From positions 28,896-92,895 of the IMG/VR virus record IMGVR_UViG_3300022188_000229: a stretch of 64,000 bases of DNA, one strand, 5' to 3'. The position numbers were made by a program, and so were the translations under genes. The first letter of the stretch is position 1. Every line of letters starts with the position of its first letter. Source of the DNA: a virus. The notes under the pieces were generated by a model that was given only the letters and a program-made list of their open reading frames with translations, did not search any database and was not told where the DNA came from. Shown here one piece after another: positions 56,078-56,477 of the stretch.

Positions 56078-56206
56078 TAGCGCCTGAGGGACTCGAACCC
56101 CCGACCACGTCATTATAAGTGATAAACTTCGCATGTTCGGTCTCTTTATGGAGAGACAAGTTAGTATACAAAGTGGTTCGTGCTCTGCCAACTGAGCTAA
56201 GGCGCG
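56078..56206 (-). tRNA. tRNA (anticodon UAU, Ile) interrupted by a 56-nt insertion (56123-56178)
   Basis: Removing the insertion restores CGTCA-CTTATAA-TGACG and a 73-nt cloverleaf. Confidence 0.8.
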
Positions 56207-56345
56207 TCATTAAATTTACCTTATACTGTGGGCAACTATTGAGATAGCAGTATCAACTGCAGTCCTGTAGAATTCCCCAATCATAAGTATAAATTGCCTT
56301 AGTACATATTTCTTAAACGTCATAATATCCCCTTAAAAGCTATTA

Positions 56346-56477
56346 TGGGATGGCCAACAAGTATCGAAGCTTGCATTACCAGGTTGGGATAAACTTTACA
56401 TATTCGGTCCTCTGAAAGAGGACAAGTAATCATATAAAGTATTGTGCCTGGTGTCCTACCATTAGACTACAACCATC
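56346..56477 (-). tRNA. tRNA-like gene (restored loop CU-CCC-AA; His-like G-1:C73 acceptor) interrupted by a 56-nt insertion (56390-56445)
   Basis: CCAGG/CCTGG anticodon stem, D arm, T arm and encoded CCA. Confidence 0.7.

What the first reader, a model, noticed from the sequence alone, without database searches (positions are those of the whole stretch)
56078..56477. Family of exactly 56-nt structured insertions in tRNA anticodon arms (candidate new tRNA intron class)
Seen: two neighbouring tRNA genes each carry a 56-nt insert, at different positions (between nt 28/29 and 32/33). The inserts are AACCACUUUGUAUACUAACUU-GUCUCU-ccauaa-AGAGAC-CGAA-CAUGCGAAGUUUA and ACAAUACUUUAUAUGAUUACUU-GUCCUC-uuuca-GAGGAC-CGAA-UAUGUAAAGUUUA. 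Stems covary, while the internal loop (ACUU/CGAA) and the 3' junction (AGUUUA|UC) are conserved. Precise removal restores a 5-bp stem and 7-nt loop in both. They are too small for group I/II introns, and a bulge-helix-bulge cut does not regenerate the tRNA. Inference: they are removed by self-cleavage or a dedicated nuclease, then ligated by the phage's RtcB. This could hide tRNAs from anticodon nucleases or gate their maturation.
Basis: partly seen in the sequence, partly recalled or inferred. Interest (0 to 1): 0.88.

Follow-up and report, generated by a model that had tools for sequence, protein, structure and literature searches.

The report
Y-RNA-like docking arm inside phage tRNAs
The two 56-base inserts in these phage tRNA genes are real and folded, but they most likely are not a new kind of intron: they are copies of a hairpin that mimics the Ro60-protein docking stem of Y RNAs, a hairpin that in other uncultured phages sits right in front of Ro60 genes.

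Summary
Observation confirmed. Two minus-strand tRNA genes, a Gly-CCC type (56476..56346) and an Ile-UAU type (56206..56078), each carry a 56-nt insert, at 32/33 and at 28/29. ARAGORN calls both only after the insert is removed.

The intron reading is only partly supported.
- A covariance model built from the inserts finds two more copies in the window outside any tRNA: 50439..50388 (-), upstream of tRNA-Ser and RtcB, and 24945..24998 (+), in a 3' UTR. All four lie in the direction of local transcription. So "exactly 56 nt" is coincidence.
- All four share CUU-GUY...RAC-C-GAA (bulged C), a covarying 7-9-bp stem and a UUAUC tail. This is the layout of the Ro60-binding helix, upper stem and loop start of human Y1/Y4 RNA.
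- A model made only from this window's copies hits 80 phage Ro60 loci 16 times. All hits are on the Ro60 strand and 14 lie upstream of the gene. No hit in 100 control loci exceeds 16.5 bits.
- Many of those hits sit in anticodon arms of tRNA-like genes, and most of these cannot be restored by excision.

Best reading: un-permuted, tRNA-bodied YrlA-type Y RNAs.

Caveats: no Ro60 gene was found in this record or in its 189-kb relative, and no RNA data exist, so splicing is not excluded. The scan noted this class earlier on other DNA.

The parts
56346..56476 (-). tRNA-like gene A (Gly-CCC type) carrying the module between nt 32 and 33. The acceptor stem has three G.U pairs, the T loop has 8 nt, and CCA is encoded.
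   Evidence: ARAGORN calls it only after the insert is removed. Sequence read.
56390..56445 (-). Module A, 56 nt. Parts: leader 56445-56441; P1 5' strand 56440-56432; joiner 56431-56427; CUU 56426-56424; P2 56423-56418 paired with 56412-56407; loop 56417-56413; CGAAU 56406-56402; P1 3' strand 56401-56393; UUA 56392-56390. The conserved UC follows at 56389-56388.
   Evidence: Fold z = -4.4. Covariance-model matches: R1 77.9 bits, R3 54.7 bits. Pair counts.
56078..56206 (-). tRNA-like gene B (Ile-UAU type) carrying the module between nt 28 and 29. The anticodon stem is therefore split into CG and UCA. The first acceptor pair is a C1.U72 mismatch.
   Evidence: ARAGORN calls it after removal. Orthologues with the module at the same site are L352, L282/L346 and L350.
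56123..56178 (-). Module B, 56 nt. Parts: leader 56178-56175; P1 5' strand 56174-56166; joiner 56165-56161; CUU 56160-56158; P2 56157-56152 paired with 56145-56140; loop 56151-56146; CGAAC 56139-56135; P1 3' strand 56134-56126; UUA 56125-56123. The conserved UC follows.
   Evidence: Fold z = -4.1. Covariance-model matches: R1 77.3 bits, R3 54.1 bits.
50388..50439 (-). Module copy C, not inside a tRNA. Same architecture: P1 9 bp, CUU-GUUAC...GUAAC-CGAA, UUAUC tail. It lies in an ORF-free stretch about 170 nt upstream of tRNA-Ser(UGA) and about 280 nt upstream of RtcB.
   Evidence: R1 32.3 bits, E 7e-4, from a model built only from A and B. R3 55.9 bits. Sequence.
24945..24998 (+). Module copy D, not inside a tRNA. 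It lies between the stop codon of ORF 24306-24884 and a strong terminator hairpin (about 25010-25055), upstream of ORF 25090-25653. It is absent from the orthologous spacer of the close relative G006.
   Evidence: R1 30.8 bits. R3 56.8 bits. Sequence. Comparison with G006.
48943..50109 (-). RtcB RNA ligase gene. Its link to the modules is context only. Bacterial rsr-yrlBA-rtcBA operons join Ro60, Y RNAs and RtcB.
   Evidence: Pfam PF01139, E 5.8e-113. Operon organisation from PMC7790460.

Best explanation
The 56-nt inserts are copies of a Y-RNA-type protein-docking module. The module is a hairpin whose base reproduces the bulged Ro60-binding helix (5'-CUU-GUY / RAC-C-GAA-3'). An internal loop joins that base to a second covarying stem, which is followed by UUAUC.

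In genes A and B the module is grafted into the anticodon arm of otherwise complete tRNA bodies. This yields tRNA-bodied Y RNAs. They are equivalent to bacterial and phage YrlA, but not circularly permuted. Here the RNA ends are the normal tRNA acceptor ends and a loop closes the docking helix. In YrlA the reverse holds.

Shown: the module's structure and covariation, its four co-oriented copies in the window, and the tight association of its homologues with Ro60 genes in other phages.

Inferred:
- The module stays in the mature RNA.
- It binds a Ro60-type ring protein, either the host's or a phage copy in the unsampled roughly 13% of the genome.
- The tRNA body serves as the effector or decoy end, for example tethering Ro60 to tRNA-binding enzymes or exonucleases, or competing with anticodon nucleases. 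RtcB would belong to the same RNA damage and repair theme.
For: (1) Signature. All four copies keep CUUGUY...RACCGAA, 9-10 nt of a paired strand and then UUAUC. Human/rat Y1 reads GGUCCGAAGGUAGUGAGUUAUC at its 5' end and CACUUGACUAGUC at its 3' end, and RNY4 is analogous (PMC3928194; PMC5648034). Chen 2014 gives GNCGAAN0-1G / GGUCCGA as the Ro60-contacted motif. The phiLo study used a 'conserved CGAA motif' to find phage Y RNAs.

(2) Copies C and D lie outside tRNAs, so the module is an autonomous unit.

(3) G.U pairs and 4 of 4 copies oriented with transcription indicate an RNA-level structure.

(4) An independent phage, G007 (238 kb), has a tRNA-embedded copy (R2 33 bits). It also has a module-like element (R2 22.8 bits, full P1/P2 architecture, with CUAC in place of CGAA) directly upstream of its Ro60 gene, and a second, weaker partial match (13.1 bits, the P2 hairpin with CUUG...CCGAA) that overlaps that gene's Shine-Dalgarno sequence and start codon.

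(5) Unbiased test: model R2, built only from this window, searched against 80 viral Ro60 loci. It gave 16 hits, all on the Ro60 strand, 14 of them upstream of the gene and 7 at 18 bits or more. In 100 control loci the best score was 16.5 bits.

(6) The iterated model R3 hit 14 of 80 Ro60 loci and 0 of 100 controls.

(7) A model-free regex found 27 matches upstream of Ro60 on its strand, against 7 in 2.0 Mb of controls.

(8) Many of these hits lie in anticodon arms of tRNA-like genes. Most of those (L345, L290, two in L271, L338, G007) cannot give a canonical 7-nt loop on excision.

(9) The B-type orthologue in L282 lies about 100 nt upstream of a Ro60 gene. An uninterrupted homologue lies 340 nt downstream of another Ro60 gene, in L348.

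(10) Precedent: YrlA joins a tRNA-like domain to the Ro60 module through the anticodon stem.
Against: - No TROVE/Ro60 gene is found in the 92.9-kb record or in the 189-kb close relative, either with Pfam or with a phage-Ro60 profile. Together these cover roughly 85-90% of the estimated genome. The relative's 189-kb contig also holds no module copy.
- Rfam's YrlA model does not score the module.
- Models built from this window did not hit Y RNA regions of crAss001, Rhizobium TM30, Vibrio Va1 or CcrColossus.
- Precise removal restores perfect anticodon arms in A and B.
- In four B-type orthologues the CUUAUAA loop is invariant and the split stem covaries (CG|UCA, GC|CCA, CC|CCA). A tRNA that is eventually spliced and decodes would also show this.
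- RtcB is encoded 6 kb away.
- Binding to Ro60 is untested.
Confidence: 0.55

Rival explanations
1. Protein-dependent tRNA intron. The module is a recognition handle. A nuclease cuts 4-5 nt before and 3 nt after stem P1, leaving a 2',3'-cyclic phosphate and a 5'-OH, and the phage RtcB joins the exons to give working tRNA-Gly(CCC) and tRNA-Ile(UAU). The module could gate maturation or hide the anticodon from anticodon nucleases.
For: - Deleting the insert restores canonical anticodon arms in A and B, and in the B-type orthologues L352, L282 and L350.
- Across those orthologues the anticodon loop is identical and the stem covaries.
- An uninterrupted homologue exists in L348.
- Between this window and L352 the exons are more conserved than the module.
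- RtcB is encoded nearby.
- Lak phages have unexplained tRNA introns (PMC6784885).
Against: - No candidate nuclease was identified.
- No BHB motif is present.
- Two copies lie outside tRNAs.
- Most tRNA-embedded relatives next to Ro60 genes are not restorable.
- The UUAUC tail shifts relative to the exon boundary: UUA|UC, UUAU|C, UUA|CC.
- The syntenic relative L352 keeps the B-type gene but has no RtcB between tRNA-Ser and tRNA-Cys.
- Both tRNA types are redundant here, since Ile-UAU at 55377-55453 and Gly-UCC at 59109-59181 are intact.
Confidence: 0.2
2. The module is a binding or processing site for some other phage or host factor, for example an RNA chaperone, an RNase or a translational regulator. 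Its likeness to Y RNA and its position near Ro60 genes would then be regulatory, as a Ro60 mRNA leader element, and would not mean that these RNAs are Ro60 partner RNAs.
For: - Copy D lies in a 3' UTR before a terminator.
- In G007 one element overlaps the Ro60 Shine-Dalgarno sequence and start codon.
- No Ro60 gene is found in this phage.
Against: - The conserved letters match, on both strands and with the bulged C, the helix that Ro60 contacts in Y RNAs.
- Several copies can stand upstream of one Ro60 gene. L271 has five, which is more than a single leader element.
Confidence: 0.12
3. Selfish miniature mobile insertion, MITE-like or a homing remnant, that has disrupted two dispensable tRNA genes. 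On this view the genes are pseudogenes and the fold has no function.
For: - Presence and absence vary between relatives: D is missing in G006 and A is missing in L352.
- An HNH endonuclease gene abuts gene B.
- Both interrupted tRNAs are redundant.
Against: - There are no target-site duplications and no terminal inverted repeats of conserved sequence.
- The stems covary and use G.U pairs, which work only in RNA of this strand.
- All copies lie in the direction of transcription.
- The B-type chimera is conserved, with compensatory changes, across four distant contigs.
- The sequence is identical in vent samples from 2018 and 2025.
Confidence: 0.06
4. Small self-cleaving or self-splicing ribozyme intron.
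For: The internal loop is conserved, and the junction sequence UUA|UC is conserved.
Against: - No Rfam ribozyme family matches, even at E up to 10.
- The conserved core is fully explained by the Y-RNA helix.
- The 5' junction is not conserved.
- Copies exist outside tRNAs.
Confidence: 0.03

Closest known systems
YrlA, the tRNA-like Y RNA of bacteria and phages bound by Rsr/Ro60 (Rfam RF02553; Chen et al. 2014, PMC4201824; structure preprint 10.1101/312249)
   Same: Both combine a tRNA-shaped domain with a Ro60-docking helix attached through the anticodon arm. Both carry a CGAA-containing motif. Both occur in phages and near RtcB.
   Different: - YrlA is a circularly permuted tRNA mimic. Its ends pair to form the docking stem and a loop closes its acceptor stem. 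Here the ends are the normal tRNA ends and a loop closes the docking helix.
- Here an anticodon hairpin persists beside the module.
- RF02553 does not score the module.
- No Ro60 gene was found in this record.
Metazoan Y RNAs (Rfam RF00019; human/rat Y1 and RNY4, sequences in PMC3928194 and PMC5648034)
   Same: The helix has a bulged C: GNC-C-GA paired with UU-GNC. An internal loop follows, then a roughly 9-bp upper stem and UUAUC directly after its strand. The 5'-to-3' order on the CCGA strand is the same.
   Different: Y RNAs are Pol III transcripts whose termini form the lower stem and whose loop is pyrimidine-rich. Here the 'loop' is a whole tRNA, or flanking transcript, and the lower stem is capped.
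Yrl1/Yrl2 of Thermus phage phiLo with phage Ro60 (PMC12135203)
   Same: These are phage-encoded small RNAs with a CGAA motif in a stem-bulge-stem, located upstream of the phage Ro60 gene. The stand-alone copies found upstream of Ro60 in IMG/VR loci are arranged in the same way.
   Different: The phiLo RNAs are stand-alone RNAs with a 5'-3' terminal stem. No tRNA embedding is described, and binding to Ro60 was shown experimentally only for phiLo.
'Enigmatic' tRNA introns of Lak megaphages (Devoto et al. 2019, PMC6784885)
   Same: Both are phage tRNA genes interrupted by short inserts that fit no known intron class, with no known removal route.
   Different: One Lak insert is itself tRNA-like, and no Y-RNA signature is reported for them. 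Whether they are related was not tested here.
Archaeal BHB introns at non-canonical tRNA positions
   Same: Both are short inserts at positions such as 28/29 or 32/33, in systems with an RtcB-type ligase.
   Different: No bulge-helix-bulge can be formed at either junction here, and no splicing endonuclease is known in bacteria or phages.

Membership tests
Y RNA / YrlA-type Ro60 partner RNAs | A conserved Ro60-contacted helix motif (GGUCCGA or GNCGAA on one strand, with a bulged C, paired with UUGAC-type letters on the other) | tested here: met
   All four copies have RAC-C-GAA paired with CUU-GUY, and the N-N' pair covaries. The motif definitions come from PMC4201824 and from Y1/RNY4 sequences.
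Y RNA / YrlA-type Ro60 partner RNAs | Encoded next to, or in the same genome as, a Ro60/TROVE gene | tested here: not met
   For this window the feature is absent. Neither Pfam TROVE nor a phage-Ro60 profile hits the 92.9-kb record or the 189-kb relative. About 13% of the genome is unsampled. Homologues of the module in other phages do meet the feature.
Y RNA / YrlA-type Ro60 partner RNAs | A second, effector-binding domain, tRNA-like in YrlA | tested here: met
   Genes A and B have full tRNA bodies with D arm, T arm and acceptor stem. Copies C and D lack one, which resembles the YrlB/Yrl type.
Y RNA / YrlA-type Ro60 partner RNAs | The 5' and 3' ends of the RNA pair to form the Ro60-binding stem (permuted-tRNA topology in YrlA) | tested here: not met
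   A 1-6-nt loop closes the docking helix, and the RNA ends are the tRNA acceptor ends. The Rfam YrlA model scores only 17.6 bits against a gathering score of 69, and that match lies on neighbouring tRNA arms, not on the module.
Y RNA / YrlA-type Ro60 partner RNAs | Physical binding to Ro60 | not testable with these tools
   This needs EMSA or co-immunoprecipitation.
Archaeal/eukaryal protein-spliced tRNA introns | A bulge-helix-bulge motif (or relaxed hBH) spanning both splice sites | tested here: not met
   The 4 nt before the last two exon-1 bases cannot pair with the 4 nt before the last two insert bases. For A the pairing would be CCAG with AGUU. For B it would be AGCA with AGUU, giving 3 of 4. 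This is by inspection.
Group I / group II self-splicing introns and small self-cleaving ribozymes | A match to a known catalytic core (Rfam) and adequate size | tested here: not met
   No intron or ribozyme family matches at E up to 10 over 55900-56700 or at E up to 1 over 40000-64000. The insert is only 56 nt.
MITE-like mobile DNA | Terminal inverted repeats of conserved sequence, target-site duplications, and orientation-independent scatter | tested here: not met
   There are no duplicated flanks. The stems covary instead of conserving sequence and contain G.U pairs. All 4 copies lie in the direction of transcription.

The most novel reading that the evidence does not exclude
The Y-RNA-like module is an excisable element: a new, protein-guided tRNA intron. 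A Ro60-type or other module-binding factor would position a nuclease at the base of stem P1, and RtcB would reseal the tRNA. On this reading, phages would gate or protect the maturation of selected tRNAs (Ile-UAU, Gly-CCC). Y-RNA modules and tRNA splicing would then be mechanistically linked in bacteria and their viruses.
Probability: 0.15. Interest if true: 0.9.

Novelty: new variant of a known kind. Interest (0 to 1): 0.6.

Why it matters
Y RNAs and Ro60 form a conserved RNA-surveillance system whose bacterial and phage roles are still unclear. Published bacterial and phage Y RNAs are either stand-alone stems or circularly permuted tRNA mimics (YrlA).

This window shows a different design. 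A capped Ro60-type docking hairpin is grafted into the anticodon arm of complete tRNAs, and the same hairpin is reused in other transcripts. The model built from this window recovers the design beside Ro60 genes in many uncultured phages.

Three consequences follow:
- It offers an alternative explanation for part of the 'interrupted phage tRNA genes' that tRNA finders miss.
- It links phage tRNA arrays, RtcB and Ro60 in one RNA damage and repair theme.
- It provides a compact, testable RNA (about 50 nt) for Ro60 binding studies.

If the minority reading holds and the module is excised, this would be the first protein-dependent tRNA splicing route in bacterial viruses.

Tried and rejected
- **IMG/VR scans with exact core patterns.** ACTTGTC...GACCGAA, GACCGAANATGNNAAGTTTA and the core plus a T loop returned only chance or coding matches.
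- **RtcB-based relatives (L123-L130).** They have no module and no TROVE gene. L125 holds a different interrupted tRNA.
- **Brute-force deletion with ARAGORN.** It is too permissive to rank excision sites.
- **Rfam searches.** They found nothing beyond tRNAs.
- **Models R2/R3 on known Ro60 phages.** CcrColossus, crAss001, Rhizobium TM30 and Vibrio Va1 gave no convincing hit.
- **Public sequencing runs.** No RNA holder is listed. DNA contigs of four vent runs were laid on 44001-64000. One 2025 contig covers 55454-56601 without any difference. No joint at the insert boundaries appeared. Contigs cannot show RNA processing.
- **Metagenome scan for a contig extending past the window end.** No match.
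- **Viral scan for B-type 3' halves.** It returned only L282's record.
- **Literature.** No paper was found on un-permuted tRNA-embedded Y modules.
- **Motifs considered and dropped by inspection.** Hammerhead, hairpin, twister and pistol cores; k-turn and loop E motifs; an RNase P/Z minihelix route; and a pseudoknot between UUAUC and the joiner, which is not conserved in copy B.

Full report
**Setting.** The window is bases 28896-92895 of a 92.9-kb IMG/VR virus record that CheckV rates 34% complete. It is a large myovirus from hydrothermal-vent metagenomes. It carries a minus-strand tRNA array from about 43 kb to the window end at 64 kb. Within that array lie an RtcB ligase gene at 48943-50109 and several small HNH genes.

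- On the minus strand, 56476..56346 and 56206..56078 are tRNA-shaped genes that ARAGORN and Rfam miss.
- After deleting 56445..56390 and 56178..56123, ARAGORN calls tRNA-Gly(CCC) and tRNA-Ile(UAU), each with a 5-bp anticodon stem and a 7-nt loop.
- The inserts lie at 32/33 and 28/29. The junctions cannot slide, because the flanking letters differ.
- Each insert folds into P1 (9 bp), an asymmetric internal loop and a P2 hairpin (6 bp), far more stably than shuffled sequence (z = -4.1 and -4.4).
- No bulge-helix-bulge can be drawn, and Rfam gives no intron or ribozyme match.
- The bodies are slightly odd. A has three G.U pairs in the acceptor stem and an 8-nt T loop. B has a C1.U72 mismatch.

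**The module is not confined to tRNAs.**
- A covariance model built from the two inserts (R1) found two further copies in the window. Copy C is at 50439..50388 (-), in an ORF-free stretch just upstream of tRNA-Ser and RtcB. Copy D is at 24945..24998 (+), between a stop codon and a strong terminator.
- All four share one plan: a 4-5-nt leader, a covarying P1, a joiner ending in CUU, a P2 that starts GU and ends AC, then CGAA, the P1 return strand and UUAUC.
- Pairing is 98%, with five pairs changed on both sides. No shuffle out of 500 reaches this.
- G.U pairs, and the fact that all four copies lie in the direction of local transcription, show that this is an RNA structure.
- The lengths are 56, 56, 52 and 54 nt, so 'exactly 56' is coincidence.
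- The UC after the 3' junction belongs to the conserved UUAUC tail. That may explain why the module sits at 28/29 in one tRNA (U29 C30) and at 32/33 in the other (U33 C34).

**What the conserved letters are.**
- The base of P2 reads CUU-GUY on one strand and RAC-C-GAA on the other: three pairs, a bulged C, then G.U and A-U pairs.
- This is the Ro60-binding helix of Y RNAs. Y1 begins GGCUGGUCCGAAGGUAGUGAGUUAUC and ends ...CACUACUGCACUUGACUAGUC (PMC3928194). RNY4 is analogous (PMC5648034).
- Chen et al. 2014 name GGUCCGA / GNCGAAN0-1G as the Ro60-contacted motif of vertebrate and bacterial Y RNAs. The phiLo study located phage Y RNAs by a 'conserved CGAA motif'.
- The likeness extends further. 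After CCGAA come 9-10 nt of a paired strand and then UUAUC, as in Y1 and Y4.
- Topologically, P2 corresponds to the Y lower stem, capped here by a loop. P1 corresponds to the upper stem. The tRNA takes the place of the Y loop.
- YrlA, the bacterial and phage Y RNA, also joins a tRNA-like domain to the Ro60 module through the anticodon stem. It does so as a circularly permuted tRNA with a closed acceptor stem.

**Independent test of the Ro60 link.**
- A specific pattern scan of IMG/VR gave one true homologue. This is a tRNA with the module in its anticodon loop, in a 238-kb phage record (G007).
- That record encodes a Ro60 homologue. Directly upstream of it, on the same strand, lie two module-like elements. 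The first scores 22.8 bits and has the full two-stem plan, with CUAC where the window's copies have CGAA. The second is a weaker partial match (13.1 bits) whose 3' strand covers the Shine-Dalgarno sequence and whose CGAA abuts the start codon.
- I then collected 80 viral Ro60 loci and searched them with R2, a model built only from this window's four copies. It gave 16 hits, all on the Ro60 strand. Fourteen are upstream of the gene and seven score 18 bits or more. In 100 unrelated viral loci the best of five hits scored 16.5 bits.
- An iterated model (R3) hit 14 of the 80 Ro60 loci, always on the Ro60 strand, and none of the controls.
- A model-free regex gave 27 matches upstream of Ro60 on its strand, 6 on the other strand, and 7 in 2.0 Mb of controls.
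- Across 13 members, 12 of 14 pairs change on both sides.

**Intron or permanent arm?**
- Many of the Ro60-linked hits lie in the anticodon arm of tRNA-like genes. Of the nine embedded copies I inspected, only own A, own B and L282 give a canonical arm on deletion. In L345, L290, two in L271, L338 and G007, no deletion gives a 7-nt loop with U33.
- The Ile-type chimera is an old lineage. L352 (a syntenic relative), L282 (about 100 nt upstream of a Ro60 gene) and L350 carry the module at the same 28/29 site. All have an identical CUUAUAA loop and compensatory changes in the split stem. An uninterrupted homologue lies 340 nt downstream of a Ro60 gene in L348.
- This conservation fits either a spliced tRNA or a structured three-way junction with a functional hairpin.
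- Against a motif-defined cut, the UUAUC tail shifts relative to the 'exon' boundary: UUA|UC, UUAU|C, UUA|CC.
- L352 keeps the chimera but has no RtcB at the corresponding place. It also lacks copy A.
- Copy D is absent from the orthologous spacer of the close relative G006. Copies are therefore gained and lost.

**Weak points.**
- Neither this record nor G006 (189 kb, sheath 85% identical) has a detectable Ro60 gene, and G006 has no module copy. G006 lacks the tRNA/RtcB region, and about 13% of the genome is unsampled. A host Ro60 is also possible.
- No RNA run holds the sequence.
- DNA contigs from a 2025 sample are identical across both genes, and no insert-free form was seen.

**Verdict.**
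- The inserts are real members of a conserved RNA family. They are best read as Y-RNA-type Ro60-docking modules grafted into tRNAs. This makes them an un-permuted variant of YrlA-like Y RNAs, not a new self-cleaving intron class.
- I found no paper or Rfam family for this layout.
- Earlier agents of this scan reached the same class on other genomes. I used those notes as leads and re-tested the Ro60 association independently.
- Excision by a protein route with RtcB remains a minority possibility, at roughly 0.15-0.2.

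Noticed in passing
window 50217-51150 (-): There is about 930 nt without an ORF of 50 aa or more upstream of tRNA-Ser/RtcB, and it holds module copy C. Contig depth over 50671-51337 is raised in all four vent runs, and several contigs break at 50665/50703. This suggests a sequence shared with other organisms or elements. 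Rfam finds nothing there.
   Followed up: partly
window 50300-50466: One low-depth contig of run X4 skips 167 nt that include module copy C. This may be a strain variant lacking that copy, but it is not a precise excision of the module.
   Followed up: no
window 55826-56077 (-): A small HNH endonuclease ORF (Pfam HNH, E 3.5e-6) starts directly after tRNA-like gene B. The syntenic relative L352 has an unrelated ORF at that place. A second, weaker HNH_3 match lies at 44462-44992.
   Followed up: partly
window 46658-46733 (-); 45064-45136 (-); 59670-59749 (-): The array holds a CUA-anticodon (amber suppressor type) tRNA. It also holds two tRNA-like genes that ARAGORN misses: a His-GUG type with C33 and a Tyr-GUA type with a long variable arm. 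An earlier scan note lists three tRNAs here with C33 in place of U33.
   Followed up: no
L263:612-708 (G007, IMGVR_UViG_3300028364_000014): The leader of a phage Ro60 gene holds two module-like hairpins. The second pairs across the Shine-Dalgarno sequence and ends at the start codon. This layout would allow Ro60 to repress its own translation.
   Followed up: partly
L264/L265 (G007:83265-84536): The RtcB homologue of G007 matches in two pieces (residues 37-152 and 150-382) about 250 nt apart, in separate open frames. It is either a split gene or one with an intervening sequence.
   Followed up: no
L125:17207-17388: A complete 102-kb phage has RtcB but no Ro60. One of its tRNA genes carries an insert of about 110 nt with a long hairpin in the anticodon region. 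This insert is unrelated to the module (no R1 hit at E up to 10 in L125), so it is a different kind of interrupted phage tRNA. An odd tRNA-like element with a 9-nt anticodon loop lies at about 16688-16765.
   Followed up: partly
L348:8155-10056 (Ga0222694_1000135): A Ro60 gene is followed 340 nt later by an uninterrupted tRNA-Ile(UAU) whose 3' half matches gene B. This tRNA lineage therefore travels with Ro60 even without the module.
   Followed up: partly
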